Assembly: GCA_039800105.1 (NCBI GenBank)
Contig: JBDLRI010000078.1
Span: 6,469 to 70,468 of the forward strand
Reading direction: 5' to 3'
DNA length: 64,000 nt
Source: Pseudomonadota bacterium
Lineage (GTDB): Bacteria; Myxococcota_A; UBA796; SXON01
Below are positions 5,091-54,589 of this stretch, one piece after another. The position numbers and the translations under genes were made by a program. How positions within the stretch are numbered: position 1 is the first letter of the stretch; every line of letters starts with the position of its first letter. The notes under the pieces were generated by a model that made no database searches, had not been told where the DNA came from, and worked only from the letters and a program-made list of their open reading frames with translations.

Positions 5091-7133
5091 ATGGGCGTCG
5101 CGTGGCTCGTCGGGCTGGGGTGGCTTGCGGCGTGCGGCACCCCGTCGCCGTCCGGGCCCCCGGCCCTCGACGCCTACGCGGCGCGCGGGGCGCCCGTGAC
5201 GGCGGCGCGGTGGGAGGGTCCGTGGCGCGTGCAGGTGTTGGCGCGAACCCCCGGGGAGCCCGATGTGCAGGCGTTCGCCGAGGTGCTCGGCGCGCCCGTC
5301 GTGGCGTGGGACGGCGCGCGACTGACCCCGCCGGTGGGCACGGCCGCCCTCGTATGGGTGGCTTCCGAGGCCGACGCGGAGCGGGTTTCCGCGGCTGGCG
5401 TCGCCGCCGGGGGCGGCGAGGGTGTGGCGGTGTTGTCCGCGACGTTCAGGTCTGGGGCGGGGGGCCGCAGCCCCCCGCAACGCCCCCCGCCGGACGCGGA
5501 CGCGAAGCCCGCGCGGGAGGTCTGGGCGGCGCGGCTCGCGTGGGCCGGTCTCGGGGTGGTGGATGCGGGGGCCGAGCTCGGCCTGTGGGCGGATCCGGCG
5601 TGGGCGGATTCGCACCCGGCGCGGGCGGCGCAGGCCGCGGCGTTCGCGGTCGCGTCGCACTACGCGGTGCCCGCGCGACCGGTGCCGGTGGACGACGACG
5701 TTCCGGCGGGCCTCGCGGAGCACCTGGCGGGCGCGGACGCCGAGGATGTGACCTCGGGCGATCCGCGACGCCGGGCGGCAGCTGCCGGCGATGCCGCGTC
5801 CGTGTGGGCCGCGACCGATCCGGATCCCGCGGTGCGCCTTGCGCTCGCGGCATCCGCGCGGGATCCCGCCGTGCGCGCGCGCCTCTCCCGGGACGCCGAC
5901 GCGCTGGTGCGCGCGCGTGCGCTCGACGGGTTGGACGATCCCGCGCTGCTGGCCGAGTCGCTCTCCGACGGCTCCAGCTTCGTGCGCGTCGTGGCCGTGG
6001 CGCGGTTGGCGGAGCTCTCCCGCGCGGGGAGCACCGCGCCGCAGGTGGAGGCCGCCCTCTCCGCGGCCAGCGGCTCCCCCGACGCTTACGTGCGCTGGAA
6101 GGCGGCGTCCGGTCTGCGTGACGTCGCGCGGCTCGCGGCGCTGCTGGCGGGGGATGCGGACGCGGATGTGCGCCGGGAGGCCGCGCGGCGCCTCGGCGTG
6201 CTCGGGGACCCTGCGGGGGCCGCTGCGCTCGTCGCTGCGACGCACGACCGCAACAGCTTCGTCCGCCGATGGGCGGCCGCCGCGCTCGGGCGGGTGCCGA
6301 CCCCCGACGCGGAGGCGGCCCTGCGCCGGGCCGCGGAGGACCCTACGGCGTTGGTGGCGGCCGCGGCCGCAGACGCCCTGCGGGCGCGCGGCGTGCCCAT
6401 GCCCGTGCGTCCGCCGTGGCGGCCGCCCGGCCCGCCCGAGGATGACGCGGCGCTCGATTCGCTGCTGGCCAGCCCGGATGCCACCGCGCGCAAGGACGCC
6501 GCGAAGTTTACGGTCGGTCGCCCGGGCGCGGTGGCGCGACTCGCGGCCCTGCGGTCGGACCCCGACAGCGAGGTGCGCAAGGCGGCGATGGAGGCCCTCG
6601 GGCGCGGGGCGTCGGAGGCGGACCGCCCCGCCCGCCTGGCGGCGTTGCGGCCCGGGCTGGACGATCCGGACGTGGATGTGCGTGTCACGACGCTGTCGTC
6701 CTACGCGGCGCTCGGGCGTGTCCCCGAGGACGCGCGCGCGCGGGTCGTGGCGCTCGCGGGGGATCCCGACACGGAGCTGCGTCTCCGGGCGGTGGAGGCG
6801 CTCGCCGCGGATCCGGACCTGCCGCCCGCCCTGCTTCCCGTGACGGACCCCGACGAGCGCGTACGGGCCGCCATCGTGGGACGCCTCCCCGCGCGCCTCG
6901 ACCCGGCGGAGCCGTGCGTGCTGGTCCGCCGCGCGGCGGGGCGCGGCACGGGAATCCTCGATGCCCCGGGGGACGACCCGCACCGTCGCGCCTGGTCCGC
7001 CGGGCGGCTTCACGACCTCGATCGGCTCGTCCACGCACGGTTCTCCTGGAACCTTCCGGAGGACCTGCCGCCGAGCCACCGCGCGCTGCGCCCGCCGGTC
7101 GTGCGCGCCTTCGGCCACCCCGACGAGGGGTGA
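5091..7133 (+). CDS. HEAT-repeat (PBS-lyase type) lipoprotein
   Basis: ATG 5091 inside ORF 4287..7133; lipobox MGVAWLVGLGWLAAC. Many DPxVR...AL..LGD repeats. Hairpin repeat copy 5452-5488 is read in frame. Confidence 0.65.
   Translation: MGVAWLVGLGWLAACGTPSPSGPPALDAYAARGAPVTAARWEGPWRVQVLARTPGEPDVQAFAEVLGAPVVAWDGARLTPPVGTAALVWVASEADAERVSAAGVAAGGGEGVAVLSATFRSGAGGRSPPQRPPPDADAKPAREVWAARLAWAGLGVVDAGAELGLWADPAWADSHPARAAQAAAFAVASHYAVPARPVPVDDDVPAGLAEHLAGADAEDVTSGDPRRRAAAAGDAASVWAATDPDPAVRLALAASARDPAVRARLSRDADALVRARALDGLDDPALLAESLSDGSSFVRVVAVARLAELSRAGSTAPQVEAALSAASGSPDAYVRWKAASGLRDVARLAALLAGDADADVRREAARRLGVLGDPAGAAALVAATHDRNSFVRRWAAAALGRVPTPDAEAALRRAAEDPTALVAAAAADALRARGVPMPVRPPWRPPGPPEDDAALDSLLASPDATARKDAAKFTVGRPGAVARLAALRSDPDSEVRKAAMEALGRGASEADRPARLAALRPGLDDPDVDVRVTTLSSYAALGRVPEDARARVVALAGDPDTELRLRAVEALAADPDLPPALLPVTDPDERVRAAIVGRLPARLDPAEPCVLVRRAAGRGTGILDAPGDDPHRRAWSAGRLHDLDRLVHARFSWNLPEDLPPSHRALRPPVVRAFGHPDEG
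5452..5488 (-). repeat. G/C hairpin repeat, short form, copy B (inside the HEAT lipoprotein CDS)
   Basis: CTGGGGCGGGGGGCCGCAGCCCCCCGCAACGCCCCCC, read in frame as ...GAGGRSPPQRPP. Confidence 0.85.
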
Positions 7134-7148
7134 GCACCGATCCGGCCC

Positions 7149-7188
7149 GGGGGCGTTGCGGGGGGCGGGCCAAGCCCCCCGCCCCAGG
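7149..7188 (+). repeat. G/C hairpin repeat, short form, copy C (between convergent genes)
   Basis: GGGGGCGTTGCGGGGGGCGGGCCAAGCCCCCCGCCCCAGG. 9-bp stem GCGGGGGGC/GCCCCCCGC. Lies between stops at 7133 (+) and 7197 (-). Confidence 0.85.
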
Positions 7189-7196
7189 AGCGCGCC

Positions 7197-7391
7197 TCAG
7201 AACACCATGTAGATGAACGGCGCCACGTAGTGCATCCCCTGCAGGAACAGGAGCACCCCTCCGAGCAGGACCAGCACCGCCACCAGCGGGAGCATCCACC
7301 ACCGTCCGCCGCGGACGAGCAGCAGCAGCAGCTCCCCGACGGTGCCGAGTCGCATCAGGAAGGCCTCGGTGCGGCCCAGTCCCGCGCTCAT
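7197..7391 (-). CDS. DUF5989-family small membrane protein
   Basis: 64 aa ending ...LLGGVLLFLQGMHYVAPFIYMVF, the family's characteristic APFIY..F end. ATGA overlap with the upstream carbamoyltransferase, its usual neighbour. Confidence 0.75.
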   Translation of the reverse strand: MSAGLGRTEAFLMRLGTVGELLLLLVRGGRWWMLPLVAVLVLLGGVLLFLQGMHYVAPFIYMVF

Positions 7392-11175: not shown

Positions 11176-12798
11176 ATGCTCCTCGCGCTCCTCCCTGCCG
11201 CGCTCGCCCAGGCACCCGGTCCCACCGCGGGCCTGGCGGGCGGCATGCAGATCATGACGGAGACCAACCCTGTGCTGGGGGGAGGGCAGGCGACGGTGCG
11301 CGTGGGGGCCACCGTCGTCTCCGCGTTCGACCTCGAGGCGGAGGTCGGTCGGCTGGAGGGTGCCACCCGTGACCTGGGTTTCGGCTACTGGACGCTGTCG
11401 CCGCGCCTGAACGCCCTCGTGCACCTGACGCCGGATTCGCGCGCGGACCTCTTCTTCACGTTCGGCGGCGGGATGCAGTACGTCGAGGTCCGGCGTCCCA
11501 GCCGCGCGGACCAGCCCGATGACCGCGACCGCGCGCTCTACCGCAACCCGAGCTGGGACTGGGTGGCCGTGGCGGGGCCGGGCCTCACGCTGCACCTGGC
11601 CGGGCCGGTGCACCTGCGGACGGATGTGCGCTGGTACGGAACCTTCGGCGCCGACGCCACCAACGCGCGCCCCGACACCTTCTCCCAGCTGGAATGGACC
11701 GCTGGGCTCGACTTCCGGGCCGAGGCGCCCGCGGATCGCGATCAGGACGGCATTCCCAACCGGGACGACGCCTGCCGCGACGAGCCCGAGGATCGGGACG
11801 GGTTCGAGGATTCCGATGGCTGTCCCGATGGCGACAACGACGGCGACGGCGTCATGGACGGTATCGACCGCTGCCCGGACGACCGCGAGGACCGGGACGG
11901 CTTCCAGGATCGGGACGGCTGCCCCGACCCGGACAACGATCAAGACGGCATCGCGGATGTGCGCGATTCCTGTCCCGAGGACCCGGAGGACCGGGACCGC
12001 TTCCAGGACAAGGACGGCTGTCCCGAGCCGGACAACGACGACGACGGCATCCTCGACGCCCGGGACCGCTGCCCGGGGGAGGCGGAGGACCGGGATGGGT
12101 TCGCGGACCGGGACGGATGCCCGGAGCGGGACAACGACCTCGACGGCTTCGCGGACGGCGTCGACACATGTCCGGACGAGCCGGAGACGGCGAACGGGTT
12201 CCAGGACTCGGACGGCTGCCCCGACGAGGTCCCGCGCGAGGTCAAGCGCTTCACCGGGGTGATCCGCGGCATCACCTTCGAGACGCGCAGCGACACGATC
12301 CGGCCGTCCTCCGAGTTCACCCTCCAGGAGGCCCTGTCGGTGCTCGAGGAGTACCCCGACGTGCGCCTGGAGGTGGAGGGCCACACCGACGACGTGGGCG
12401 ACGACGCCTTCAACCTCGAGCTCTCGGATCGGCGCGCGCATGCGGTGGTGCGCTGGTTCGTGGAGCACGGAGTCGACCCGGTGCGTTTGCAGGCGCGTGG
12501 CTACGGCGAGACCCGCCCCCTCGCGGAGAACGATTCCGATGCCGGGCGGGCCGAGAACCGCCGCGTGGAGTTCCGGTTGCTGCAGGCGGAGCGACCGCCC
12601 GTGGAGCCCGAGTTCCCGACGCCGGAGGAGGTGCGTCCCACGCCGGTGCCCAACGCGCTCGGCATCATCGAGGTGCCGTCCACGCCGATGGACTTCGACG
12701 AGGAGCCGACGCGCTCCCCGGACGTGCCGGGCAAGGACGTCGAGCCGGGCGAGGAGGACGAGGCGCCGCCCCCTCGCCGCCGTCCGAGCTACCCGTAG
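11176..12798 (+). CDS. OmpA-family outer-membrane protein with thrombospondin type-3 repeats
   Basis: About 11 D-x-D-x-DG..D..D.CP calcium-binding repeats (nt ~11740-12235). Then the OmpA-C motif LEVEGHTDDVGDDAFNLELSDRRAHAV...NRRVEFRLL. Confidence 0.9.
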   Translation: MLLALLPAALAQAPGPTAGLAGGMQIMTETNPVLGGGQATVRVGATVVSAFDLEAEVGRLEGATRDLGFGYWTLSPRLNALVHLTPDSRADLFFTFGGGMQYVEVRRPSRADQPDDRDRALYRNPSWDWVAVAGPGLTLHLAGPVHLRTDVRWYGTFGADATNARPDTFSQLEWTAGLDFRAEAPADRDQDGIPNRDDACRDEPEDRDGFEDSDGCPDGDNDGDGVMDGIDRCPDDREDRDGFQDRDGCPDPDNDQDGIADVRDSCPEDPEDRDRFQDKDGCPEPDNDDDGILDARDRCPGEAEDRDGFADRDGCPERDNDLDGFADGVDTCPDEPETANGFQDSDGCPDEVPREVKRFTGVIRGITFETRSDTIRPSSEFTLQEALSVLEEYPDVRLEVEGHTDDVGDDAFNLELSDRRAHAVVRWFVEHGVDPVRLQARGYGETRPLAENDSDAGRAENRRVEFRLLQAERPPVEPEFPTPEEVRPTPVPNALGIIEVPSTPMDFDEEPTRSPDVPGKDVEPGEEDEAPPPRRRPSYP

Positions 12799-15942: not shown

Positions 15943-17826
15943 ATGGCAGCCAACATCGGCATCGACCTCGGGACCACCCACAGCCTCGTGGCCGTCGTGC
16001 TCGGCGGGAAGGCGCGCTGCCTGCTGGACGAGACCGGCGACGCGCTGCTCCCGTCCGCCGTGCGGGTGGAGGACGACGGCACGCTGGTGGTGGGGCGCGC
16101 CGCGCGGGACGAGGCGGCGGCGCACCCGGGCCGCACCTTCACCAGCACGAAGCGCTTCATGGGCCGCGCGCCCGCGGACTGCCGCGAGGACGCCGCGCGC
16201 CTGCGCGCCACCCTCGACGAGGCCGAGGGCCGCTTCGTGCGGTTCCGCGCGGGGTCGCGCACGATCACGCCGGTGGAGGTCGCGGCGGCGGTGCTCAAGA
16301 CGCTGCGGGCGCGTGCGGTGGAGTGCCTCTTCGGAGAGCCGGGCGGCGCGGTGATCACGGTGCCGGCCTACTTCGACGACGCCCAGCGGCAGGCCACGAA
16401 GGACGCGGCGCGCCTCGCGGGCCTCGAGGTCCTGCGGCTGCTCAACGAGCCGACCGCGGCCGCGGTGGCCTACGGGCTGGACGCGCGCGCAAGCGGCCGC
16501 TTCGCCGTCTACGACCTCGGCGGCGGCACCTTCGACGTGAGCATCCTCGAGCTGGACGACGGCATCTTCCAGGTGCTCGCGACCGCCGGCGACACCCACC
16601 TCGGTGGGGACGACTTCGATCGCCTCGTCGCGGAGCACCTCCGCAGCGCGCTCGGGCTCGGCGACCTCGACGACTCCGCGCATCGGGCGCTCCTGCAGGC
16701 CGCCGAAGCCGCCAAGCGCCGCCTTGGGGAGGCGGACGCGACCGAGGTGGCCTTCGCGGGGCGCAGCTGCACGCTCACGCGGGAGACCTTCGACGCGCTC
16801 GTGGCACCGGTTCTGGCCCGCACCGGCGACGCCGCGCGCCAGGCACTGGGCGATGCCGGCCTGACGGCCGATCAGCTCGACGCCGTGGTGCTCGTCGGCG
16901 GGTCCACCCGCGCCCCCGTGGTGCGCCGCTACGTGGAGGGGCTGTTCGGGCGTGCGCCCCGCTGCGACCTCGACCCGGATCAGGTCGTGGCGCTCGGCGC
17001 GGCCATGCAGGCGGACATGCTCAGCGGTGCGGCCTCCATGGCCGATGACATGCTGCTGCTCGACGTGATCCCGCTGTCGCTGGGGCTGGAGCTCATGGGC
17101 GGCGTGGTGGAGAAGTTCATCCCGCGCTGCTCGACCATTCCCGTCAGCGCGCACCACACCTTCACGACCCACGTGGACGACCAGACCAGCATCGACCTGC
17201 ACGTGGTCCAGGGCGACCGCGAGCTGGCGCGCGACAACCGCTCGCTCGCGCGCTTCCGCCTCGCGGGGCTTCCGCCCCTGCCGGCCGGGGTGCCGCGCGT
17301 GCGCGTGGAGTTCACCGTGGACGCCGACGGGCTGCTCACCGTGTCCGCGCGGGAGGAGTACACCGGCCTCGAGACGCGGGTGGACGTGCGCCCCAGCTAC
17401 GGCCTCTCCGAGGAGGAGATCGAGCGCATGCTCGAGGACAGCATCGACCACGCCGAGGACGATGTCGAGGCGCGCATGGCCATCGAGGCGCGCGTGGAGG
17501 CCGAGGGCATCCTGGCGGCGCTGGACAAGGCGCTGGCCACCGACCGCGCCCTGCTCGAACCCGGCGAGGAGGAACGCGTGGTGCAGGTCGCCGAGGCGCT
17601 CCGCGCCGCGCTTCCGGGCTCCGACCGCGCGCGCGTGCGGGAACTCTCGCAGGAGCTCGACGCCGTGACCGCGCCGTTCGCGCAGCGGCGCATCGAGCGG
17701 GATCTGACCCGCGCCCTGTCCGGCCGCGACGCGCTCGCGGTGGACGCCGAGCTGGCCTCCCGGGCCGCGTCGGCCGGGGGCGTTGCGGGGGGTGGCCAGC
17801 CCCCCGCCCCAGGCGCAGGAGCCTGA
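15943..17826 (+). CDS. hscA: Hsp70-type Fe-S chaperone HscA
   Basis: MAANIGIDLGTTHSLVAV, DLGGGTFDVS, and the Hsp70 ATPase and substrate-binding layout. The last ~17 codons are encoded by hairpin repeat copy 17776-17813. Confidence 0.93.
   Translation: MAANIGIDLGTTHSLVAVVLGGKARCLLDETGDALLPSAVRVEDDGTLVVGRAARDEAAAHPGRTFTSTKRFMGRAPADCREDAARLRATLDEAEGRFVRFRAGSRTITPVEVAAAVLKTLRARAVECLFGEPGGAVITVPAYFDDAQRQATKDAARLAGLEVLRLLNEPTAAAVAYGLDARASGRFAVYDLGGGTFDVSILELDDGIFQVLATAGDTHLGGDDFDRLVAEHLRSALGLGDLDDSAHRALLQAAEAAKRRLGEADATEVAFAGRSCTLTRETFDALVAPVLARTGDAARQALGDAGLTADQLDAVVLVGGSTRAPVVRRYVEGLFGRAPRCDLDPDQVVALGAAMQADMLSGAASMADDMLLLDVIPLSLGLELMGGVVEKFIPRCSTIPVSAHHTFTTHVDDQTSIDLHVVQGDRELARDNRSLARFRLAGLPPLPAGVPRVRVEFTVDADGLLTVSAREEYTGLETRVDVRPSYGLSEEEIERMLEDSIDHAEDDVEARMAIEARVEAEGILAALDKALATDRALLEPGEEERVVQVAEALRAALPGSDRARVRELSQELDAVTAPFAQRRIERDLTRALSGRDALAVDAELASRAASAGGVAGGGQPPAPGAGA
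17776..17813 (+). repeat. G/C hairpin repeat, short form, copy D (inside the hscA 3' end)
   Basis: GGGGGCGTTGCGGGGGGTGGCCAGCCCCCCGCCCCAGG, read as GGVAGGGQPPAPG, 11 nt before the hscA stop. Confidence 0.85.
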
Positions 17827-17828
17827 AC

Positions 17829-18242
17829 ATGGCCGGGCGGAACCCCTACCTGACGGCGCCGGACGCGCCGGTCGCCACGCGGCCCTTCTCCATCGTCGTG
17901 GTCGGCGACGACGGCGAGCTGCGCGTCGACGTCGATCCGTCGACCCTGCCGAACGACGAGCCGGGGCTGCCCGGGAGCGTGCTGTCCATCCTGCTCGCGG
18001 CGGGGCTGGACGTGGAGCACGCCTGCGGCGGCGTGTGCGCCTGCTCGACCTGCCACGTCTACGTCGAGGCCGGCGGCGCGCGCTGCAACGAGGCCAACGA
18101 CGACGAGGCCGACATGCTCGACACGGCCCCGGCCCTTCGCGCCACCTCCCGCCTGGCGTGCCAGTGCGTTCCGGATGGCGGCGCCGACCTGCGCGTGCGC
18201 ATCCCCCGCTGGAACCGCAACGCGGTGCGGGAGCACGGGTAG
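17829..18242 (+). CDS. fdx: ISC-type [2Fe-2S] ferredoxin
   Basis: CGGVCACSTCH...LACQC adrenodoxin-type Cys pattern. Starts 2 nt after the hscA stop. Confidence 0.88.
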   Translation: MAGRNPYLTAPDAPVATRPFSIVVVGDDGELRVDVDPSTLPNDEPGLPGSVLSILLAAGLDVEHACGGVCACSTCHVYVEAGGARCNEANDDEADMLDTAPALRATSRLACQCVPDGGADLRVRIPRWNRNAVREHG

Positions 18243-22113: not shown

Positions 22114-24168
22114 CTAGGGTCGCGGCAGGTCGCCGAGGACCGCGCGGATGCGCGTGCCGACCGGCGGTGCGAGGCCGATGGCCGTATGACCCCAGGCCAC
22201 GCCCTCCTCCTTGGACCGGTCGCGCACCACGCGCTCGCTCCAGCCTTGCACGAGCTGGTCCCGCGCGGCGATCGACTCCTCGAACAGGACACCGTCGCCG
22301 GAGGGGTCGCAGGTCGGGCACGCCATGCCGTCGTGCTCCGCGATCGCGCCGGTCGTCGCGCGCGTGCCGTGCAACACGAGGAGGTAGTCCAGCTGCGGGG
22401 TCAGCCCGTGCGCGGCGAGTCGCTCCATGACGTTGCCCCCGAGTTCCCGCGCTGCGGCGAGGCCGATTCCGTCGAACAGGCGGTACCGCCACCCGGACCC
22501 GTCGAGCCCGAGCTCCGTGTCGCGGTCGTACCAGCCGTGGCGCGCCTCGCACGGCGTCGTCGCCGGATCGAAGGCGGACGCGCGGCACGTGGTGTGGCCG
22601 TCGTCATCGAGCAGGGTTCCCGGGGTGAACGTGCCGGTCGCGGGCACCCACGCGAGCTTCTGGACCACCCAGGGGCGCCACACGCCCTCGTCGGTATCCA
22701 CGGCGCTCCACGCCAGCGCCTCCTGTCCCCGCGCCGGGATCGGGTGCGCCTCGCGGAAGTCGCCGATGACCTGGAGCTGGCCGAGGTACGCGGTCGTCCA
22801 GACGCCGTCCTCGCCCACGGATCCCCACATGGCGAGGTTGTTCGCGTCGAAGTCGGTCTCCAGCGCCCCCTCGCCCCGGTTGAGCGACTCCAGGTTTCCC
22901 GACGACACCGGCGCGCCGTCCTCGTCCAGCCCGGTGAGGTTCGACAGGTGGATGCGCGACCAGAAGTCCGTCCACACCTCGCCGCGGCGGCGGCACAGGC
23001 CCTGCGCGTACAGCTCCGGCACCATGGCGGCGAACGTGGCGCACTGGGCCGCCATCATGCTCCCCCACGCCATGGGGCCGCGGCCGAAGGCCGTGTTCTC
23101 GGGCGTGCTGGCGATGAGGAGGTTGTTGTAGGGGTGACGCCAGTTCATGTCGATGCCGCGGTGCGGGCCCGACAGCGTCACGTAGGCCCTCACCCGCCCG
23201 TCGACGTGCGGGACGCGGCGCGCGCTCTCGGCCGCGAGCCGCTCGCCCCACTTGGGGCCCCAGTCGTCCCAGGATGCCGTGTCCGCCAGGTACAGGTCCG
23301 CCGCCACCGAGCCCTTGCTCCACGCGATCACGTCGACGCGGGGCGCGCCGGTGAGCTCTCGGATGCGCCCGATGGCGTTGTGGAGGTGCGTGGCCTGTCC
23401 GAAGTTGTCGCCGTGGGAGTTCGAGAAGGTGAGCGCGTAGCTGCACAGCCCCGCCGCCTCGAAGTCCTGCACGAACCCCGTGCGCACCGGCGTCCCCGGG
23501 TAGGTACCCCCGTCGCCGTCGGTGCCGCCGGGGAACAGCCACGCGTTCGCGTCCTGCATGGCGCCGTGCACGAACAGCACCGGCGTGCGCGCGGTGTCAC
23601 AGTCGAGCGCGGCGGAGCGCGGACCGTGGTGCAGCAGCACGAAGCGCGCCTCGGGGCGCGTCGGGCCGACGGCCGGGCAGTCCGGGGCGTCGGTGGAGTC
23701 CACCGTGCCCGCGCAGGTGCTCGCGTAGTGGAGGTTGAAGGCGTCCACGATCTGCTGGTTGAGCGCCCCCATGTAGGTCTGCACGGGGTAGAGCGCGTCC
23801 TGCCAGGTGTCCATCCAGCGTAGGTGGGCGGTGCGGCGGTTGTGCCCCTCGGTGCGGAAGACCTGCAGGCCCTCCAGCAGCTCGATGCGCCCCCACGTGC
23901 CCTGCAGCGTCGGGCCCGGCTCGGTCGCGCCCACGACGCGGTACCCGTCGGTCCAGCCCCCGTCCGGCGCCACGTCGAAGAGGTCCTCGAACTCCCGCGG
24001 CGGGGCCGAGACGTCCGTCGGCGACACGTCCACCGGCCCCGTGTCCACCGTCCCGGTGTCCGTGGAGGTCTCCGTGGCCGTCCCGGTGTCCGCCACCGGC
24101 GGCCGCACGGGCACGGTCGGTCCGCCGCCGCACGCGGCCAGGAATGAGAGGGCGATGGATGCGAGCAC
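22114..24168 (-). CDS. lipoprotein with lipase-like alpha/beta-hydrolase domain
   Basis: Lipobox MLASIALSFLAAC and a T/D-rich linker (ADTGTATETSTDTGTVDTG). VLFVHGAMQDANAW and the nucleophile-elbow-like DVIAWSKGS resemble class-2 lipase/PGAP1-like folds. Confidence 0.55.
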   Translation of the reverse strand: MLASIALSFLAACGGGPTVPVRPPVADTGTATETSTDTGTVDTGPVDVSPTDVSAPPREFEDLFDVAPDGGWTDGYRVVGATEPGPTLQGTWGRIELLEGLQVFRTEGHNRRTAHLRWMDTWQDALYPVQTYMGALNQQIVDAFNLHYASTCAGTVDSTDAPDCPAVGPTRPEARFVLLHHGPRSAALDCDTARTPVLFVHGAMQDANAWLFPGGTDGDGGTYPGTPVRTGFVQDFEAAGLCSYALTFSNSHGDNFGQATHLHNAIGRIRELTGAPRVDVIAWSKGSVAADLYLADTASWDDWGPKWGERLAAESARRVPHVDGRVRAYVTLSGPHRGIDMNWRHPYNNLLIASTPENTAFGRGPMAWGSMMAAQCATFAAMVPELYAQGLCRRRGEVWTDFWSRIHLSNLTGLDEDGAPVSSGNLESLNRGEGALETDFDANNLAMWGSVGEDGVWTTAYLGQLQVIGDFREAHPIPARGQEALAWSAVDTDEGVWRPWVVQKLAWVPATGTFTPGTLLDDDGHTTCRASAFDPATTPCEARHGWYDRDTELGLDGSGWRYRLFDGIGLAAARELGGNVMERLAAHGLTPQLDYLLVLHGTRATTGAIAEHDGMACPTCDPSGDGVLFEESIAARDQLVQGWSERVVRDRSKEEGVAWGHTAIGLAPPVGTRIRAVLGDLPRP

Positions 24169-24210
24169 AGGACCTCCGCTGCCGTCGCAGCGTATCCTGC
24201 GGCTTCTCCG

Positions 24211-24387
24211 TGGGGCGGGGGCTGAGGCCGCCCCCTCGCGGCCGCCGCCGGGCGTCGGCCTCCGGGGGCGGGGTCCGGCGCTCGCCGAGCCTGGCTCGGC
24301 GCCGCCTTCGGCGGACGCGTCCTCCCCACGCGCGCCGCTCGGGGCCCCTTCGGGGCCAACCGCGGCGGCGTGCCCGCAACGCCCCGG
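24211..24387 (-). repeat. G/C hairpin repeat, 177-bp long form, copy E (intergenic)
   Basis: Starts TGGGGCGGGGGCTGAGGCCGCCCCC and ends GTGCCCGCAACGCCCCGG, the same termini as the short form. The core has hairpins GCCGAG-CCTGG-CTCGGC, CCGC-CTTCG-GCGG and GGCCCC-TTCG-GGGGCC. Confidence 0.8.
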
Positions 24388-24391
24388 CCCG

Positions 24392-25204
24392 CTAGGCGTG
24401 CCCGAGCAGCGCCAGCACGATCTCCATCACGATGAGGATCACGACCGCCCACTCGAGCGACAGCGCGCGGCGTCCGTGCCAGAGGTCGGTGATCGTGTCG
24501 AGCGATTCCTCCACCGCCTCGAGCTTGTGGAGGATCGACTGGTGCCGCTCGCGCAGCTCCAGGTTGTCGGCCAGCGCCTCGTGCAGCTCGAAGATGCGCG
24601 GGTCGTTCCACGCCGCCTCGGGGCGGTCCAGCGTGGTGAACCACCGCGCCAGCTCGAGCCGCCGCGCCAGGATGTGCCCGATGCGCATGCTGAGCGCGCG
24701 CGCGCTGCGCGGGAGCGCGCCGGTGCGCTCGAGCTGCCGCGCGAGATCCGCCACCTCGGTGAGCAGGTCCTCCGCCTCCCGGGCGTAGCGGTCCATCGCC
24801 GCGGAGCGCGCGAGCAGGTGGGACACGGCCTCGCGGGTGGTCGGCTCCGCGTCGTGCACCACCACACGGTCCCAGCCCACGCGGGGGCGCATGCCGTTGC
24901 GGGACGGGTCCACGAGCAGGAGCGTGGTCTCGGCCGTGGCGTCCAGGCACGCGCGGCCGGTCGCCCCCTCGATGATCGTGCGCACGTCGGCGTCGAGGCT
25001 GGAGCGGTTCTCGACCACCGCGGCCCCGAAGTCGAAGAACCGGATGCGCACGGCGCCGCCGCGCCACGCGGCCAGCCCCGGGCCGCGGTGCACCCGCACC
25101 CATCCCTCCGGCATCGCCAGGGCGTCGAGGTCGCAGCGGCCATCCACCGCCACGGCGGTCATCGGCAACGAGAGGGACACGCGGACGTCGGGTGCGACGG
25201 TCAT
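24392..25204 (-). CDS. RMD1/DUF155-like protein with C-terminal TM helix (tentative)
   Basis: 270 aa. RIRFFDFGAAVVENRS resembles the DUF155 N-terminal strand motif; long helical region; terminal TM WAVVILIVMEIVLALL. ATGA overlap with the upstream cyclase gene. Confidence 0.5.
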   Translation of the reverse strand: MTVAPDVRVSLSLPMTAVAVDGRCDLDALAMPEGWVRVHRGPGLAAWRGGAVRIRFFDFGAAVVENRSSLDADVRTIIEGATGRACLDATAETTLLLVDPSRNGMRPRVGWDRVVVHDAEPTTREAVSHLLARSAAMDRYAREAEDLLTEVADLARQLERTGALPRSARALSMRIGHILARRLELARWFTTLDRPEAAWNDPRIFELHEALADNLELRERHQSILHKLEAVEESLDTITDLWHGRRALSLEWAVVILIVMEIVLALLGHA

Positions 25205-40690: not shown

Positions 40691-42961
40691 ATGCACGTGG
40701 TCCAACTCCTCACCCTGCTGCTCGGGTGCAGCAACGACGTCGCCGGCAAGCCGGACGGTCCCACCTTCGAGCAGGACACGGGCACGGCGCCGGTCGACAG
40801 CGGCCCCGTCGTGGACGACACCTGCGACACGCCGCCGTCCGGCGGCACCACGTCGCGCGACACGAACTGCATGTACGCGCCCTCGGCGGGCGGCGCCTTC
40901 TCGCCGCGCGTGGAATGGTCCATGGCGCACGCCGTGGTGGACCCCGCCACCGGCGCGGCCATCCCGGCCTACGACTTCTCCTACGCGCCGGAGATGACCG
41001 GTGTCTTCCAGGCACCCGCGGTCGGTCAGGCGACGGATGACAACGGAAACGGCCAGATCACGTCCGGCGACATCCCGGACATCGCCGTGCTGATGGGCGT
41101 GGAGCCGGAGACCGAGATCGCCGACGTGCTCGGGGTCACCGAGGCCCGGACGTGGTCCGTGCTGCGGCTGCTCTCGGGAGACGGCCGAAAGGTCCACGCG
41201 TCGATCGACTGGCTCCCGTGGGCGGACGACGTGGTGGCGCCGTTCCTCTACGCCGGCGTGGCCATGGCGGACGTGGACGCCGACGGCCGCATGGAGATCG
41301 CGACCCTGGTCACCCGCTTCTCCGACGGCACGTGCTCCCCCGGCCTGTACGAGGTCGCCTGGAACGGGGACGTGACGCTCGAGAGCGTCGGGGACACCGC
41401 CGTGTGGTGCCAGCAGGGCACGGGATGGGACGGCTACCGCGGCGCCCACGCGCCCGCGCTCGCCGATCTCGACGGGGACGGCGTGGTCGAGGTCATCTTC
41501 GGGCGCCAGGTCTTCGAGGCGGACACGCTCGCGCTCGCCTGGGCCGGCACGGCGGGCCGCGGCAACTACAACACGCTGGAGCACGGGTCGTCCGGCTACT
41601 GGAACTCGGGCTACCACTCCTTCGCCTACGACATGGACGGGGACGGCGTGGACATGGAGGTCGTCGCCGGCCGTACCGTGTACCGCAACGACGGCACCGT
41701 CTACTGCGAGCTCGGCCGCAACGGATCGGGGGGCTGGGTCGCCGCCGAGGACGGCTACGCCGCGGTCGCCGACTTCGCGCGGTTCTCCGGAGACATGCTC
41801 GGAGAGCCGGAGATCGTCATCACCGGGAACCAGTACGTGAGCGTCTACCGCGGGAAGCCGGACGCGAACGGGCGGTGCGCGGAGTTCGGGCGGGTGGCCA
41901 ACAACCCCTACGCCACCTCGCTCGGCAACCAGCTTCCGGACCACCCCAACTGCAACACCTCGCGCAAGGCCTTCGGTGGCCAGCCGACCATCGCCGACTT
42001 CAGCGGCGACGGCACGCGGGACGTCGCGGTGTCCGGCGCGTGCTGGTACACGGTGTTCGACGTCACGGCGAGCGGTCTGACGCCGTACGCGATCGCGCCG
42101 ACGCGCGACTGGTCGAGCGCGTCGACGGGCTCGACCGTGTTCGACTTCAACGGGGACGGTGTGAACGAGATCGTCTACGCGGACGAGGAAGCGCTTCGCG
42201 TGTGGCAGATCGACACCACGGCCGGCCTGGACCCCTGGGAGCGTCTCCAGGCGGTGCTCACCGACACCAACCACGGCTCGTGGACGATCCACGAGTACCC
42301 GCTGGTGGCGGACCTCGACGGGGACGGCAAGGCGGAGATCCTCGTGGCGAACGCGCCGCGTTGGGACGCCACCACGTCCAGCGTGTACACGGAGTACGGG
42401 CTGTACGCGCTCGGCGCCGCCGATGACGATTGGGTCAGCGCGCGCCAGGCCTGGAACCAGCACGCCTACTACGTGACCAACGTCGAGGACGACGGCACCG
42501 TCGGCTACGGGCTTCCGAACTACGCGCCGTTCTCGACCTCGAACCTGAACTCGTTCCGGCTCCAGGCCCCCGGTGCCTACGGCTCCAAGGTGGCACCGGA
42601 CCTGGTGGCGACGGCCGAGACCTGCCGGGCCGACTGCGACTCGCCGCTGCAGGTGTGGGTGAGCGTGGCGAACCAGGGTGCCTACGTGACGGCGGGCTCC
42701 GGGACGAAGGTGAGCCTCTACGGCGAGCAGGGCAACACCCGGACGCTGATCGGCAGCCAGGACCTCCCGCGCGACGCCACCCCCGGGGACATCCTTCCGG
42801 CCCTGGTGTTCGAGGTGACCGACCCCGCGCGCTTCGACCGCCTCGTCGCGGTGGTGGACGACCCCGCCGCCGGCAGCGGCAGCGACGCCTGGGGCAGCGC
42901 CAAGGAGTGCGACGAGGGCAACAACGAGGTCGTCGTCAGCCTCTCCACCGACTGTCCGTAG
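40691..42961 (+). CDS. FG-GAP/VCBS-repeat lipoprotein with C-terminal CARDB-like domain (paralog 1)
   Basis: GAGG RBS and lipobox LLTLLLGCS. Repeats ADVDADGRMEIA, ADLDGDGVVEVIFG, YDMDGDGVDMEVV, ADFSGDGTRDV, FDFNGDGVNEIVY, ADLDGDGKAEILV. WNQHAYYVTNV motif; ends KECDEGNNEVVVSLSTDCP. Confidence 0.85.
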   Translation: MHVVQLLTLLLGCSNDVAGKPDGPTFEQDTGTAPVDSGPVVDDTCDTPPSGGTTSRDTNCMYAPSAGGAFSPRVEWSMAHAVVDPATGAAIPAYDFSYAPEMTGVFQAPAVGQATDDNGNGQITSGDIPDIAVLMGVEPETEIADVLGVTEARTWSVLRLLSGDGRKVHASIDWLPWADDVVAPFLYAGVAMADVDADGRMEIATLVTRFSDGTCSPGLYEVAWNGDVTLESVGDTAVWCQQGTGWDGYRGAHAPALADLDGDGVVEVIFGRQVFEADTLALAWAGTAGRGNYNTLEHGSSGYWNSGYHSFAYDMDGDGVDMEVVAGRTVYRNDGTVYCELGRNGSGGWVAAEDGYAAVADFARFSGDMLGEPEIVITGNQYVSVYRGKPDANGRCAEFGRVANNPYATSLGNQLPDHPNCNTSRKAFGGQPTIADFSGDGTRDVAVSGACWYTVFDVTASGLTPYAIAPTRDWSSASTGSTVFDFNGDGVNEIVYADEEALRVWQIDTTAGLDPWERLQAVLTDTNHGSWTIHEYPLVADLDGDGKAEILVANAPRWDATTSSVYTEYGLYALGAADDDWVSARQAWNQHAYYVTNVEDDGTVGYGLPNYAPFSTSNLNSFRLQAPGAYGSKVAPDLVATAETCRADCDSPLQVWVSVANQGAYVTAGSGTKVSLYGEQGNTRTLIGSQDLPRDATPGDILPALVFEVTDPARFDRLVAVVDDPAAGSGSDAWGSAKECDEGNNEVVVSLSTDCP

Positions 42962-42970
42962 CGGGGCGCG

Positions 42971-43016
42971 TGGGGCGGGGGGCTACCCACCCCCCTCGCG
43001 GCCGCCGCCGGGCGTC
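42971..43016 (-). repeat. G/C hairpin repeat, truncated copy I (5' module only)
   Basis: TGGGGCGGGGGGCTACCCACCCCCCTCGCGGCCGCCGCCGGGCGTC matches the first 46 nt of copy E apart from the loop. Confidence 0.75.
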
Positions 43017-43064
43017 ACCTTGACGAGCACGCGCCCGGTGTCCACGTTCCCGTCGGAGGCGAAC

Positions 43065-44801: not shown

Positions 44802-44867
44802 GCGCTCTCCTCGCGCGGGACCTATCGCGCCGGGACCGTCATCGTCGCGGGTCTTCGGCGCACGTGC

Positions 44868-44960
44868 GGGGGGCGTTGCGGGCACGGCGCCGCGGTTGGC
44901 CCCGCCCGGAGGCCGACGCCCGGCGGCGGCCGCGAGGGGGGCGGCCGGCCCCCCGCCCCA
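44868..44960 (+). repeat. G/C hairpin repeat, 93-bp intermediate form, copy F
   Basis: Reverse complement of copy E with an ~84-bp internal deletion. Both flanks are near-identical (GGGGCGTTGCGGGCACG.CGCCGCGGTTGGCCCCG ... CCCGGAGGCCGACGCCCGGCGGCGGCCGCGAGGGGG). Confidence 0.8.
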
Positions 44961-45004
44961 AGGGCAACGGGGCGTCCAAGGAGCGTCAAGTTGCGCCCCT
45001 CGCG

Positions 45005-52834: not shown

Positions 52835-54589
52835 TCAGCGGCGGGTGCCACGCGCGCGGACGCGGGCCATCTGTGCGTAGGTGCCCACGTGCGGGATGCG
52901 GGAGTCCATGGCGCGGGCCGCGTCGAGATCCTCGCACGCGCCGTGCCAGTCCTTCAGGTAGAACCGCGCCAGGCCGCGGCGGCACAACGCGAGCGCGTGG
53001 TCGGGGTGTTCCCGGAACGGGTCGGCCACCAGCGCGGAGTCGTAGGCGACGACGGCGGCGCCGTAGTCCTTCTGCGCGAAATAGGCCTCGGCGCGCACCA
53101 TGCGCGGCCCCGCCGCGAACGGGGCGAGGGCCTCGGCGGCGGCCGCGTCGCGGAGCGCGGACGTGCTGTCGGCAAGCTCCACGTGGACCCGTGCGCGGGC
53201 CAGGAGCGCCTCGAGGTGGGACGGGCACAGCGCGAGGACCGCGCTCCACCCCGCGAGCGCCCCGGGCAGATCGGCGACCTCCGTGCGGCGCAGGGCTTCC
53301 GCGAGGGCGGCGCGCACGTCGGGATGGTCCTCGGGCAGGACGGCGGCGGGCGGTCGCGGGTCGGTGGACTCCTCCCGAAACTCCGCGACCACGGGGGCCG
53401 CCGGGGGTTCCGGCGCGACGGGGCGGGCGACCGAGGGCGTCGCGTCCTCGTCGCTTTCCAGCTCGACATCGTCGCGGATCACGGTGGGGACATCGTCGTA
53501 GAGGCCGTCCGCCTCCGGAGGCGGCTGCAGGCCCGCGACCCGGATGGCGGTGATGACGCGGGCGAAGGCATCCCCGTCGGGTGCGGCCTCCGGAGGCTCC
53601 GGCAGGGTGAACTCCGGCACCACCGCGCGCGGCGTGGCGACGGGGTCCTCGTCGACCGGCTCGGCGCCCTCGCCGGAGATCGGGAGCGAGTCCCACCGGT
53701 AGCCGGTGACGAAGCCCGCGCCGCGCCGTACGGCCTGCACCGGCTGCGCGACCGTGGGGAAGCGGATTTCAGGGACCTGGCCGCGCAACTCCGCGGGCTC
53801 CTCGGCGCTGGACCGCCCGTCGCCGCCGAGGACGTAGTCCGCGTCGGTCCATGCGGGTCGCGGGGGCGGGAGGGCAACCTCCGTGACCAGGACGGGCGTT
53901 GCGGGCACGTCGCCGCGGTGGGCCCCGTCAGGGGCCTCGCGCGGTGCGCGTGGGGAGGACGTGTCCGCCGGAGGCGGCGCCGCGCCGGGCTCGGCGAGCG
54001 CCGGTGGCGGGGGCGTTGCGGGGGCGGCCTGAGCCCCCGCCCCAGGAGGCGGAGCGGCCCAGGCGGGATGCGGCTCCTCCGGTGTCGGTTCCGCAGGAAC
54101 CTCGTGAGGCACGGCATCATCGGGGAGCGCGACGAGCTCCAGCACCCGGTCGCGCGGGAGACCCATGCCGAGCAGGCGGACCGCGAGGGCCGCGCGTACG
54201 AGCGGCTCGGAGAAGGTGTCGTCCGGGGGGGCGTCGTCGCGACGCGCGGGGCCGGGCGTGAACGCCGCCCGGGCTTCCTGTTCGAGCGCCGCGATGCGCG
54301 TGCGCACGGCACGGGCGCGGGCCGCCTCCGCGAGGGCCTGGGGCGAGAAACGCGGCACCGCGTCCTCGGACGCCGACGATTCCGGCGCACGCCCGTCCGC
54401 CACGTCCTGCAGGCGTCGGATGCGAACCAGCACGGGGGTAGCGGGCCGGCCGGGCCGCGCCGCGGCCGCGAGGCGCCGGGCGCGCAGGGGCGGGAGGTTC
54501 GAGGCGGCGACCTCCAGCAGCGCGCCGCGCGCGTCCTCGACGGTGGCCAGCAGGCGCCGTGCGGCCTCCAGCGCGCGGGTGTCCGCCAC
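52835..54589 (-). CDS. Pro-rich protein with C-terminal TPR-like domain
   Basis: GTG 54589 with AAGGAG 9 nt upstream. Long P/A/E-rich middle; the C-terminal ~170 aa are TPR-like (AYFAQKDYGAAVVAYDSAL...). Hairpin repeat 54009-54046 is read in frame. Confidence 0.6.
   Translation of the reverse strand: MADTRALEAARRLLATVEDARGALLEVAASNLPPLRARRLAAAARPGRPATPVLVRIRRLQDVADGRAPESSASEDAVPRFSPQALAEAARARAVRTRIAALEQEARAAFTPGPARRDDAPPDDTFSEPLVRAALAVRLLGMGLPRDRVLELVALPDDAVPHEVPAEPTPEEPHPAWAAPPPGAGAQAAPATPPPPALAEPGAAPPPADTSSPRAPREAPDGAHRGDVPATPVLVTEVALPPPRPAWTDADYVLGGDGRSSAEEPAELRGQVPEIRFPTVAQPVQAVRRGAGFVTGYRWDSLPISGEGAEPVDEDPVATPRAVVPEFTLPEPPEAAPDGDAFARVITAIRVAGLQPPPEADGLYDDVPTVIRDDVELESDEDATPSVARPVAPEPPAAPVVAEFREESTDPRPPAAVLPEDHPDVRAALAEALRRTEVADLPGALAGWSAVLALCPSHLEALLARARVHVELADSTSALRDAAAAEALAPFAAGPRMVRAEAYFAQKDYGAAVVAYDSALVADPFREHPDHALALCRRGLARFYLKDWHGACEDLDAARAMDSRIPHVGTYAQMARVRARGTRR
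54009..54046 (+). repeat. G/C hairpin repeat, short form, copy G (inside the TPR-protein CDS, antisense orientation)
   Basis: GGGGGCGTTGCGGGGGCGGCCTGAGCCCCCGCCCCAGG, read on the minus strand as PGAGAQAAPATPP. Confidence 0.85.

What the first reader, a model, noticed from the sequence alone, without database searches (positions are those of the whole stretch)
24211..24387. 177-bp long form of the repeat is a densely structured module with a cUUCGg tetraloop hairpin
The 223-bp gap between the lipase-like gene and the DUF155 gene is almost entirely one element. Its two ends are the two halves of the short repeat: TGGGGCGGGGGC...GCCGCCCCC at the 5' end and ...GTGCCCGCAACGCCCCGG at the 3' end. The core contains three additional hairpins. 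They are GCCGAG-CCTGG-CTCGGC, CCGC-CTTCG-GCGG and a 6-bp stem closing a canonical UUCG tetraloop (GGCCCC-TTCG-GGGGCC, 24343-24358). Several stacked stable hairpins suggest a structured RNA or a recombination or transposition substrate rather than neutral spacer.
Basis: seen in the sequence. Interest (0 to 1): 0.6.

Follow-up and report, generated by a model that had tools for sequence, protein, structure and literature searches.

The report
Structured mobile insert inside hairpin repeats
The 177-bp element is a composite: a 140-bp, hairpin-rich, non-coding mobile sequence sits at one fixed point inside a copy of a 40-bp hairpin repeat that is very abundant in this uncultured freshwater Myxococcota genome, which makes it a new variant of known repeat-targeting mobile DNA rather than a known RNA gene.

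Summary
The element at 24211-24387 is real. It has 24-26 near-full copies (81-97% identical) and about 15 rearranged derivatives in this 3.6-Mb, 73% G+C genome. Its ends are the two halves of a roughly 40-bp hairpin repeat present about 470-540 times.

Removing bases 24236-24375 leaves a 40-nt short repeat that is identical to one found in a related metagenome. At the orthologous metK and PPIase loci, sister populations carry only the short repeat, with the same loop and flanks. The long form therefore arose by insertion of a 140-nt core into resident short repeats, always directly 3' of the stem's C-run.

A related core of about 120 nt occurs in other genera. There it lies inside short repeats in both orientations and also at other C-run sites. 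It shows strong structural covariation: 20 of 37 pairs have compensatory changes.

The core family co-occurs with a divergent RAYT-like Y1 transposase (Fisher p=0.007), but none is found in this incomplete genome. There is no Rfam match, no promoter or terminator consensus, and no RNA data.

The "UUCG tetraloops" are not conserved. With the stems fully paired they are 3-nt loops.

Verdict: a structured, non-autonomous insertion element nested in a REP-like repeat; a new variant of a known kind.

The parts
24211..24235 (+). Head of the resident short repeat: 5' arm TGGGGCGGGGG, loop CTGAGGCCG, 3' arm CCCCC
   Evidence: Matches the short-repeat family (about 470 regex hits). It is identical to the first 25 nt of the short repeat in L070. 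Arm A C-run length equals the 5' G-run length in most of the 24 long copies (table).
24236..24375 (+). 140-nt insert (core): TCGCGG...GGCGGCGTGCCC, a non-coding, hairpin-rich mobile module
   Evidence: Present with the same junctions in 24 copies. Absent from the orthologous short repeats in sister populations at the metK and PPIase loci. Core pairwise identity averages 92%.
24240..24273 (+). 5' module of the core: hairpin plus CCTCCGGGGGCGGGG, whose G-run can pair with the flanking C-run
   Evidence: The module pattern is conserved in 15 of 25 genomes of the taxonomic family. In this genome's copies, pair 57-65 has two independent compensatory changes. In the g9 alignment, helix 1 pairs the flank CCCC with the insert GGGG.
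24284..24300 (+). Hairpin GCCGAG-CCTGG-CTCGGC
   Evidence: Alifold helix 5. One pair has compensatory changes and three pairs are broken in single copies.
24302..24314 (+). Hairpin CCGCC-TTC-GGCGG
   Evidence: Alifold helix 6, 100% paired, with one compensatory pair. The loop is T-TC in 11 copies and T-GC in 7.
24334..24367 (+). Terminal extended hairpin: GCCGC ... GGCCCC-TTC-GGGGCC ... GCGGC
   Evidence: Alifold helices 8 and 9. The stems are conserved. The loop is hypervariable: TGGC in 9 copies, with seven or more other variants.
24376..24391 (+). Tail of the resident short repeat: linker GCAACG, C-run CCCC, then GGCC(CG), which is complementary to the loop's GGCC
   Evidence: The 3' arm and tail show mirror symmetry across the family. 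Loop-to-tail complementarity exceeds shuffles (3.06 against 2.73 +/- 0.05). The tail abuts the stop codon (CTA, 24392-24394) of the DUF155 gene.
53894..54048 (-). Derivative copy: a complete short repeat followed by the 3' 110 nt of the core with its own tail
   Evidence: blastn, nhmmer and direct reading (contig C78:60362-60516).
44864..44963 (-). Internally deleted copy (core positions about 59-141 lost at a GGGCGGGG microhomology)
   Evidence: C78:51332-51431.
42969..43021 (+). 3'-truncated copy: head plus the first 20 nt or so of the core
   Evidence: family D16; C78:49437-49489.

Best explanation
**Shown.** The 177-bp 'long form' is a resident copy of the genome's abundant 40-bp G/C hairpin repeat (5' G-arm, loop, 3' C-arm, GCAACG, C-tail). 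A 140-nt non-coding sequence (24236-24375) has been inserted into it, directly 3' of the C-run of the stem. The same insert, with the same junctions and orientation, occupies at least 24 short-repeat loci in this genome. At two of them, sister populations still have the uninterrupted short repeat. The insert belongs to a wider family of structured elements in this taxonomic family. In another genus, these elements insert 3' of C-runs in short repeats of either orientation, and also elsewhere.

**Inferred.** The insert is a non-autonomous mobile element of the PATE, REPIN or MITE kind. Its conserved hairpins are the substrate of a trans-acting enzyme that works on single-stranded DNA. Its internal G-run (CTCCGGGGGCGGG) pairs with the target C-run to define the left junction. 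The most likely mobiliser is a divergent RAYT-like Y1 (HUH) transposase, which co-occurs with the family in related genomes but is missing from this 89%-complete assembly.

The element sits in the short spacers just after stop codons because that is where its target repeats lie. Any terminator or RNA-stabilising effect would be secondary.
For: - **Copy number and boundaries:**
- **Composite anatomy:** the long form minus 24236-24375 equals a 40-nt short repeat found verbatim in L070. The junction table covers 24 copies.
- **Orthologous loci:**
  - metK: this genome has the long form, sister L062 has the short form with the same TTCCA loop and flank, and the more distant L063 also has the short form.
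  - PPIase: sisters L069 and L071 have the short form with the same loop (GCTCACGCCG) and flank.
  - sucD: both lineages carry long-form derivatives, so that insertion is older.
- **Empty site:** the same-genus genome G001 lacks the element at the C63 locus.
- **Relatives in genus g9:** of 22 copies, 10 lie in short repeats in one orientation, 7 in the other and 5 at other sites. The 5' flank is CCCCC in 17 of 22.
- **Structure in g9:** 20 of 37 pairs have compensatory changes; 95.6% of cells are paired against 79.9% in shuffles and 40-52% in slid controls.
- **Structure in this genome:** 5 compensatory pairs against 1.2 expected. Hairpin-loop columns vary about 5 times more than paired columns.
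- **Transposase association:** 10 of 15 carrier genomes have a PF01797 hit, against 1 of 10 non-carriers (Fisher p=0.007). The protein is a distant RAYT relative.
- **Instability:** deletions at microhomologies, a tandem 64-bp duplication, and one low-depth contig (run X4) that appears to carry a shorter variant of this locus.
Against: - This assembly has no Y1, IS110 or TnpB gene.
- The Y1 genes of relatives are not flanked by the element.
- The Y1 association is not corrected for phylogeny.
- In this genome all 24 copies have one orientation relative to the short repeat, unlike genus g9. That pattern also fits spread of the whole composite, or conversion between repeats.
- A target duplication cannot be resolved, because the site is a homopolymer.
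- This genome's core and the g9 core share only the 5' module of about 45 nt and the overall layout. Homology of the remainder is inferred.
- Covariation within this genome's own copies is weak.
- At the finding's own locus the sister (L059) has only a head remnant of a different subfamily, so the direction of change there is ambiguous.
Confidence: 0.6

Rival explanations
1. No dedicated enzyme is involved. The core is copied from one repeat into another by replication template switching or short-tract gene conversion, using the C-runs (arm A and the CCC before GCAACG) as microhomologies. Slippage between the same C-runs can remove it again.
For: - The core is bounded by C-runs on both sides.
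- The family is full of microhomology-mediated deletions, chimeras (C110, C20, window 53894-54048) and a tandem duplication.
- All 24 copies in this genome share one orientation.
- The 5' arm A/G variant and the tail T/C variant agree in all 24 copies (4 of the T type, 20 of the other). In 5 of 23 copies both ends also equal an existing short repeat exactly, against 1.8 expected (18 of 2000 shuffles reach 5).
- No transposase is found in the assembly.
- G/C triplex-type repeats are reported as hotspots of instability (PMC4666352).
Against: - In genus g9 the related core sits in short repeats of both orientations and at non-repeat sites. That leaves only 4-5 nt of shared flank.
- Compensatory changes preserve the core's hairpins across genomes. 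A passively copied segment has no obvious need for that, although quasi-palindrome correction could mimic it.
- The recipient's loop is retained at both informative loci, so the left crossover would have to fall within 5-6 nt.
Confidence: 0.25
2. The long form is a structured RNA module, for example a 3'-UTR stabiliser, a U-tract-independent terminator or a small RNA. Its copies are kept by selection on RNA function.
For: - The hairpins are stable.
- 14 of 24 copies start 4-20 nt after an upstream stop codon, and about 10 end 2-22 nt before a convergent gene's stop.
- At the sucD locus, more distant relatives have a canonical intrinsic terminator at the same position.
- Structure is conserved in g9 relatives.
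Against: - Copies occur in both orientations relative to the adjacent gene.
- Some copies appear to lie inside reading frames, judged by a crude codon-position G+C rule (an earlier first-reader note, e1-2328400, reports one such case).
- There is no Rfam match even at E<=10.
- There is no promoter or terminator consensus.
- G-U intermediates are almost absent: 9 one-sided cells against 97 two-sided.
- The hairpin loops are hypervariable.
- No RNA-seq runs are available.
Confidence: 0.1
3. The element is an artefact of metagenome assembly, or a chance G/C-rich spacer.
For: Short-read contigs break inside the repeat. The single-sequence fold is no better than shuffles.
Against: - 24 loci have unique flanks and copy-specific variants.
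- Independent assemblies contain a long-form derivative (L068) and matching short forms.
- Runs X1 and X2 cover both junctions.
Confidence: 0.02

Closest known systems
REP-targeting insertion sequences and the ssr9 module of ISPpu9 (Tobes & Pareja 2006, PMC1525189; Pares-Guillen et al. 2025, PMC12288879)
   Same: A mobile sequence is found essentially only inside a short extragenic palindromic repeat and always breaks it at the same point. ssr9 is a non-coding module that spreads into REPs using a transposase supplied in trans.
   Different: The element here is 140 nt with no gene. No IS110, IS3 or other transposase was found in this genome. The host repeat is a G/C triplex-type hairpin, not a classical REP.
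IS200/IS605-derived PATEs and REP/REPIN-RAYT systems (Ton-Hoang et al. 2012, PMC3333891; Nunvar et al. 2010, PMC2817692; Bertels & Rainey 2011, PMC3116915)
   Same: There are subterminal hairpins at both ends and no terminal inverted repeats. Insertion is directly 3' of a short conserved motif (here a C-run). No target duplication is evident. In related genomes the family co-occurs with a Y1 (HUH) transposase that is a distant RAYT relative.
   Different: No Y1 gene is found in this assembly. The relatives' Y1 genes are not flanked by the element. There is no GTAG or CGTC tag. The element is a single multi-hairpin unit, not an inverted REP doublet.
BIMEs (bacterial interspersed mosaic elements)
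   Same: A composite repeat built from a short palindromic unit plus conserved linker modules, lying between gene ends.
   Different: BIMEs alternate REPs in opposite orientations. Here a single short repeat is split by one insert, and orthologous loci show the insert arriving later.
Intrastrand triplex motifs, TMECO/BoxC (Holder et al. 2015, PMC4666352)
   Same: This comparison concerns the host short repeat. It has a purine arm, a pyrimidine arm and a mirror-image third arm, with G/C-rich sequence, variable loops, and links to deletions and rearrangement.
   Different: In the long form the third arm lies 146 nt from the hairpin, outside the loop limits that define those motifs. The finding concerns the insert, which has no counterpart in that family.
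ERIC elements with internal insertions (Wilson & Sharp 2006; recalled from my own knowledge, cited in PMC2759123 but not read here)
   Same: An intergenic imperfect palindrome that exists in short and longer forms, the longer ones carrying extra sequence at fixed internal sites.
   Different: The sequence, host and size are unrelated. For ERIC, the insert has not been shown to be a separately mobile, structure-conserved family.

Membership tests
Rfam RNA families | Match to a curated covariance model | tested here: not met
   No match at gathering score in the window. None at E<=10 for 24150-24450. None on the g9 elements.
REP / REPIN-RAYT | RAYT (PF01797 / NF047646) gene in the same genome | tested here: not met
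   No PF01797 hit in G000. tblastn with the relatives' protein finds nothing. The assembly is only 88.7% complete.
REP / REPIN-RAYT | Conserved GTAG or CGTC tetranucleotide at the 5' end of the palindrome | tested here: not met
   The 5' flank consensus is tCCT followed by GGGGCGG.
REP / REPIN-RAYT | Co-occurrence of the repeat family with the transposase across genomes | tested here: inconclusive
   The core's 5' module is found with a PF01797 hit in 10 of 15 carriers and in 1 of 10 non-carriers (Fisher p=0.007). This is not corrected for phylogeny.
IS200/IS605 PATE | Subterminal hairpins at both ends and no terminal inverted repeats | tested here: met
   The first hairpin starts 6 nt from the left end, and a terminal hairpin lies at the right end. 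Both are supported by covariation in g9 and are present in the window copy.
IS200/IS605 PATE | Insertion 3' of a short conserved target, strand-specific, without target duplication | tested here: inconclusive
   The insert always follows a C-run: 24 of 24 copies here, and CCCCC in 17 of 22 g9 copies. A 0-3 nt duplication of C cannot be excluded in a homopolymer.
MITE (DDE-type) | Terminal inverted repeats plus a fixed-length target-site duplication | tested here: not met
   No duplication signal in 469 short copies. The insert ends, TCGCGG and GTGCCC, are not inverted repeats.
IS110-type REP-targeting elements or modules | DEDD transposase (PF01548) in the genome | tested here: not met
   No hit in G000.
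IS110-type REP-targeting elements or modules | All copies inside the repeat at the same point | tested here: met
   24 of 24 full copies have the same junction.
TnpB/IscB guide-RNA (omega RNA) bearing elements | TnpB (PF07282) in the genome | tested here: not met
   No hit in G000 or in any g9 genome.
Intrastrand triplex motif (Holder et al. 2015) | Three arms with mirror symmetry, separated by loops of 1-6 nt (ITxF search; 0-10 nt in the earlier Hoyne et al. search) | tested here: not met
   The short repeat meets it. In the long form the second loop is 146 nt.
Intrinsic terminator | G+C-rich hairpin followed by a U-tract | tested here: not met
   No terminator-like site in 23900-24700.
BIME | REPs in alternating orientation separated by linkers | tested here: not met
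   The head, the internal head-like motif and the tail all lie in one orientation.

The most novel reading that the evidence does not exclude
The insert is a minimal 'hyperparasite' that specifies its own target by base pairing. Its internal G-run, next to the first hairpin, pairs with the C-run at the foot of the host repeat's hairpin. The host repeat is itself a triplex or pseudoknot-forming mobile repeat. A divergent RAYT-like HUH enzyme would then cut and join single-stranded DNA at that DNA-guided junction. This would be a natural, protein-light system in which one non-coding mobile element colonises another, with target choice written in the element's own sequence.
Probability: 0.15. Interest if true: 0.75.

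Novelty: new variant of a known kind. Interest (0 to 1): 0.5.

Why it matters
Nesting of one non-coding repeat inside another, at a fixed nucleotide, is rarely documented in bacteria. Here there is direct before-and-after evidence from sister populations.

The case gives a tractable example of how small structured DNA elements choose targets. It offers a candidate substrate for a divergent RAYT-like transposase in Myxococcota. It also explains part of why assemblies of these high-G+C genomes fragment and why spacers at gene ends change quickly.

It also bears on the earlier triplex reading of the host repeat. The agreement between head and tail variants across the 140-nt insert is explained by insertion into pre-existing variants. 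It should not be counted as extra evidence for long-range structural selection.

Tried and rejected
- **Gene calling.** Two home-made gene callers based on GC3 gave only 63% and 79% coding coverage and placed half of the short repeats 'inside genes'. I replaced them with a codon-position G+C phase test on the flanks.
- **In-frame insertion.** A test for in-frame insertion of short repeats gave near-random frame agreement (29 of 78 and 20 of 42). I did not pursue it.
- **Target-site duplication.** The test on 469 short repeats was negative. The AGCA found on both sides of the C63 copy is therefore probably coincidence.
- **Empty sites in the same-genus genome G001.** Only 1 of 11 long-form loci kept both flanks adjacent. 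At the finding's own locus the neighbouring gene differs.
- **Sequencing runs.** No RNA runs were found. Laying contigs of four other runs on a second locus (L002) gave too little depth. The shorter variant seen in run X4 rests on one 206-nt contig at depth 4 and is treated only as a hint.
- **Parent element.** The Y1 gene loci of relatives show no similarity to the core.
- **Candidate mobilisers.** IS110 and TnpB/omega-RNA readings were rejected for lack of the genes.
- **Long form as a species-specific novelty.** This was rejected. A sister population has a derivative, and the core's 5' module is widespread in the taxonomic family.

Full report
**1. Observation**

The window lies on contig C78 of a 3.60-Mb assembly with 160 contigs, 73.3% G+C and 88.7% completeness. 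Earlier notes describe the organism as an uncultured freshwater Myxococcota. Protein hits named 'Myxococcota bacterium' agree with that.

The 223-bp spacer between the 684-aa ORF (22114-24168, minus) and the DUF155 gene (24392-25204, minus; PF02582) holds the element at 24211-24387.

Two points need correction. With the stems fully paired, the loops of the two 'TTCG' hairpins are 3-nt TTC loops. Those loop columns are also the most variable in the family.

The element is 86% G+C. Its minimum free energy is not exceptional against dinucleotide shuffles (z about -1.1 on either strand).

**2. It is a repeat family**

blastn and nhmmer find 24-26 near-full copies (81-97% identical) with sharp boundaries. 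They also find about 15 partial copies.

The partial copies are:
- internal deletions at microhomologies;
- 5' or 3' truncations;
- complete short repeats fused to the 3' part of the long form;
- a 64-bp tandem duplication.

Three derivatives lie in the window itself: 42969-43021, 44864-44963 and 53894-54048.

Of the 24 full copies, 14 begin 4-20 nt after the stop codon of an upstream gene. About 10 end 2-22 nt before the stop of a convergent gene. Both orientations relative to the neighbouring gene occur.

Rfam gives nothing at the gathering score, and nothing at E<=10. No sigma-70 promoter or U-tract terminator consensus is present. No RNA runs could be found.

**3. Anatomy: a short repeat with an insert**

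The genome carries about 470-540 copies of a 33-44-nt repeat. Its layout is tCCT-GGGGCG-G(n)-loop-C(n)-GCAACG-C(n)-G.

The 3' arm and the tail are mirror images around GCAACG. Run lengths of 4, 5, 6 and 7 match between them. A T-bearing variant and its shifted versions keep the same symmetry. Earlier agents had already read this as a triplex-type (BoxC/TMECO-like) motif (Holder et al. 2015, PMC4666352).

I add one point. The 3' part of the loop is complementary to the 4-5 nt that follow the tail. The mean best stem is 3.06 nt, against 2.73 +/- 0.05 in shuffles, and direct and mirror controls sit at the null. This is a pseudoknot-like closure.

The long form contains the head (5' arm, loop, C-run), then 140 nt (24236-24375), then GCAACG and the tail. 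Removing the 140 nt from the window copy gives TGGGGCGGGGGCTGAGGCCGCCCCCGCAACGCCCCGGCCC. That sequence occurs verbatim as a short repeat in L070.

Across the 24 copies, the C-run left of the insert nearly always has the same length as the 5' G-run. The insert ends in CCC. In the T-variant the insert lies between CCCCC and TCC.

Long copies reproduce the loop-and-tail combinations of particular short-repeat subfamilies. Five of 23 have an exact short 'twin', against 1.8 expected.

**4. Orthologous loci show short-to-long conversion in place**

Contigs of a sister population (NCBI metagenome assembly GCA_013565555.1) are 84-96% identical in the flanks. I compared four loci.

| Locus | This genome | Sister and other relatives |
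|---|---|---|
| metK | Long form plus a 64-bp duplication | Sister L062 has the short repeat with the same TTCCA loop and the same right flank; the more distant L063 also has a short repeat |
| PPIase | Long form | Sisters L069 and L071 have the short repeat with the same loop (GCTCACGCCG) and flank; L070 has a short repeat of another subfamily |
| sucD | Long form (T-variant) | Sister L068 has a decayed long-form derivative, so this insertion predates the split; more distant relatives have a canonical hairpin-plus-T-run terminator |
| DUF155 (the finding) | Long form | Sister L059 has only a head remnant abutting the stop codon; relatives at 77% and 74% protein identity have nothing |

The same-genus reference genome G001 has no short repeats at all. 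It provides one clean empty site.

One low-depth contig from another lake sample appears to carry a shorter, roughly 75-nt variant of the window locus.

**5. The insert belongs to a wider, structure-conserved family**

Among 154 genomes of the order, the full core is found only in this genome, apart from one partial 77%-identity hit in G005.

Genus g9 genomes carry a roughly 120-nt relative with the same 5' module: TC(A/G)CGG, a hairpin, then CTCCGGGGGCGGG.

I read 22 of these g9 copies:
- 10 lie in short repeats in the window-like orientation;
- 7 lie in short repeats of the opposite orientation;
- 5 lie at other sites.

All are directly 3' of a C-run, which is CCCCC in 17 of 22.

Their alignment gives 7 helices, and 20 of 37 pairs carry compensatory changes:

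| Measure | Observed | Shuffled | Slid partners |
|---|---|---|---|
| Cells paired | 95.6% | 79.9% | 40-52% |
| Covariation score | 0.363 | 0.112 | 0.04-0.08 |

Helix 1 pairs the flanking C-run with the insert's G-run. One-sided (G-U type) changes are rare: 9 cells against 97 two-sided.

Within this genome the copies are too similar for much signal. Five compensatory pairs are seen against 1.2 expected. Hairpin-loop columns vary about five times more than paired columns.

The 5' module pattern occurs in 15 of 25 genomes of the taxonomic family. These include genomes without the short repeat, such as G003 with about 12 copies.

**6. Candidate mobiliser**

This assembly has no PF01797 (Y1), PF01548 (IS110) or PF07282 (TnpB) gene.

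Across the 25 family genomes, a Y1 hit is present in 10 of 15 core carriers and in 1 of 10 non-carriers. Fisher's test gives p=0.007, uncorrected for phylogeny. Four of the five carriers without the gene are assemblies only 75-89% complete; the fifth (G010, 93% complete) carries a single pattern match.

The protein is a 353-aa distant relative of REP-associated tyrosine transposases. NF047646 scores E=5e-15, below the curated cut-off, and PF01797 scores E=4e-7. Its loci show no flanking copies of the core.

**7. Interpretation**

It is firmly shown that the element is a composite repeat. It was made by a 140-nt structured insert landing in resident short repeats at a fixed point, repeatedly and recently.

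It is inferred that the insert is a non-autonomous element handled as single-stranded DNA by a trans-acting HUH enzyme, with its G-run pairing to the target C-run.

The main rival is enzyme-free copying by template switching at the C-runs. The many microhomology rearrangements favour it, as does the single orientation seen in this genome. The g9 data argue against it.

An RNA function cannot be excluded, but nothing specific supports it.

**8. Comparison with known systems**

The behaviour matches REP-targeting insertion sequences and the ssr9 module of ISPpu9 (PMC1525189, PMC12288879).

The architecture and target rule resemble IS200/IS605-derived PATEs and REP-RAYT systems (PMC3333891, PMC2817692).

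Membership in any of these is not established. The defining transposase is missing here, and a target duplication cannot be resolved.

I rate the finding as a new variant of a known kind, of moderate interest.

Noticed in passing
Whole genome; e.g. window 5453-5496, 7162-7204, 17787-17829: In the short repeats, the 3' part of the loop is Watson-Crick complementary to the 4-5 nt after the C-tail. At least four different matching pairs occur: GGCC/GGCC, GCCC/GGGC, CCGGC/GCCGG and CGCC/GGCG. This suggests a pseudoknot-like closure on top of the mirror-symmetric (triplex-type) tail.
   Followed up: partly
L032 (G005:C144) 1440-1705: A core-like sequence of about 130 nt sits between two identical 68-bp direct repeats, inside what reads as an FAD-binding oxidoreductase-like frame. 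That is an unusually long duplication for an insertion event.
   Followed up: no
L070 1289-1328 compared with L069 1291-1333: At the same PPIase locus, two related populations carry short repeats of different subfamilies, with different loop, run length and adjacent flank. Resident repeats can apparently be replaced in place.
   Followed up: no
L066/L067 about 1686-1760 compared with contig C79:4849-5005 and L068 1693-1815: Downstream of sucD, more distant relatives have a canonical hairpin-plus-T-run terminator where this genome and its sister have the repeat element. The element may have displaced or replaced the terminator.
   Followed up: partly
Contigs C48:7518-7697 and C95:32169-32348: Two long-form copies share core markers and the same right-hand flank (a purN-like gene end about 85% identical) but have different left flanks. 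This points to duplication of a gene together with its element rather than two insertions.
   Followed up: no
11 long-form loci compared with G001: Only 1 of 11 long-form loci has both flanking genes still adjacent in the same-genus genome. This could be ordinary loss of synteny at about 75% identity, or a link between the repeats and rearrangement breakpoints.
   Followed up: no
Alignment A2 (g9 cores): Compensatory changes are almost all G-C to C-G flips with no G-U or G-T intermediates. That fits pairing at the DNA level, or quasi-palindrome correction, better than ordinary RNA covariation.
   Followed up: no
window 11732-12226: Four tandem copies of a 99-bp unit (68-72% identical), probably a repeat within a coding region.
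   Followed up: no
window 41453-42355 and 56148-57210: Two clusters of DxDGDG-type (FG-GAP/VCBS-like) coding repeats about 14 kb apart share nucleotide-level similarity.
   Followed up: no
   Followed up: partly
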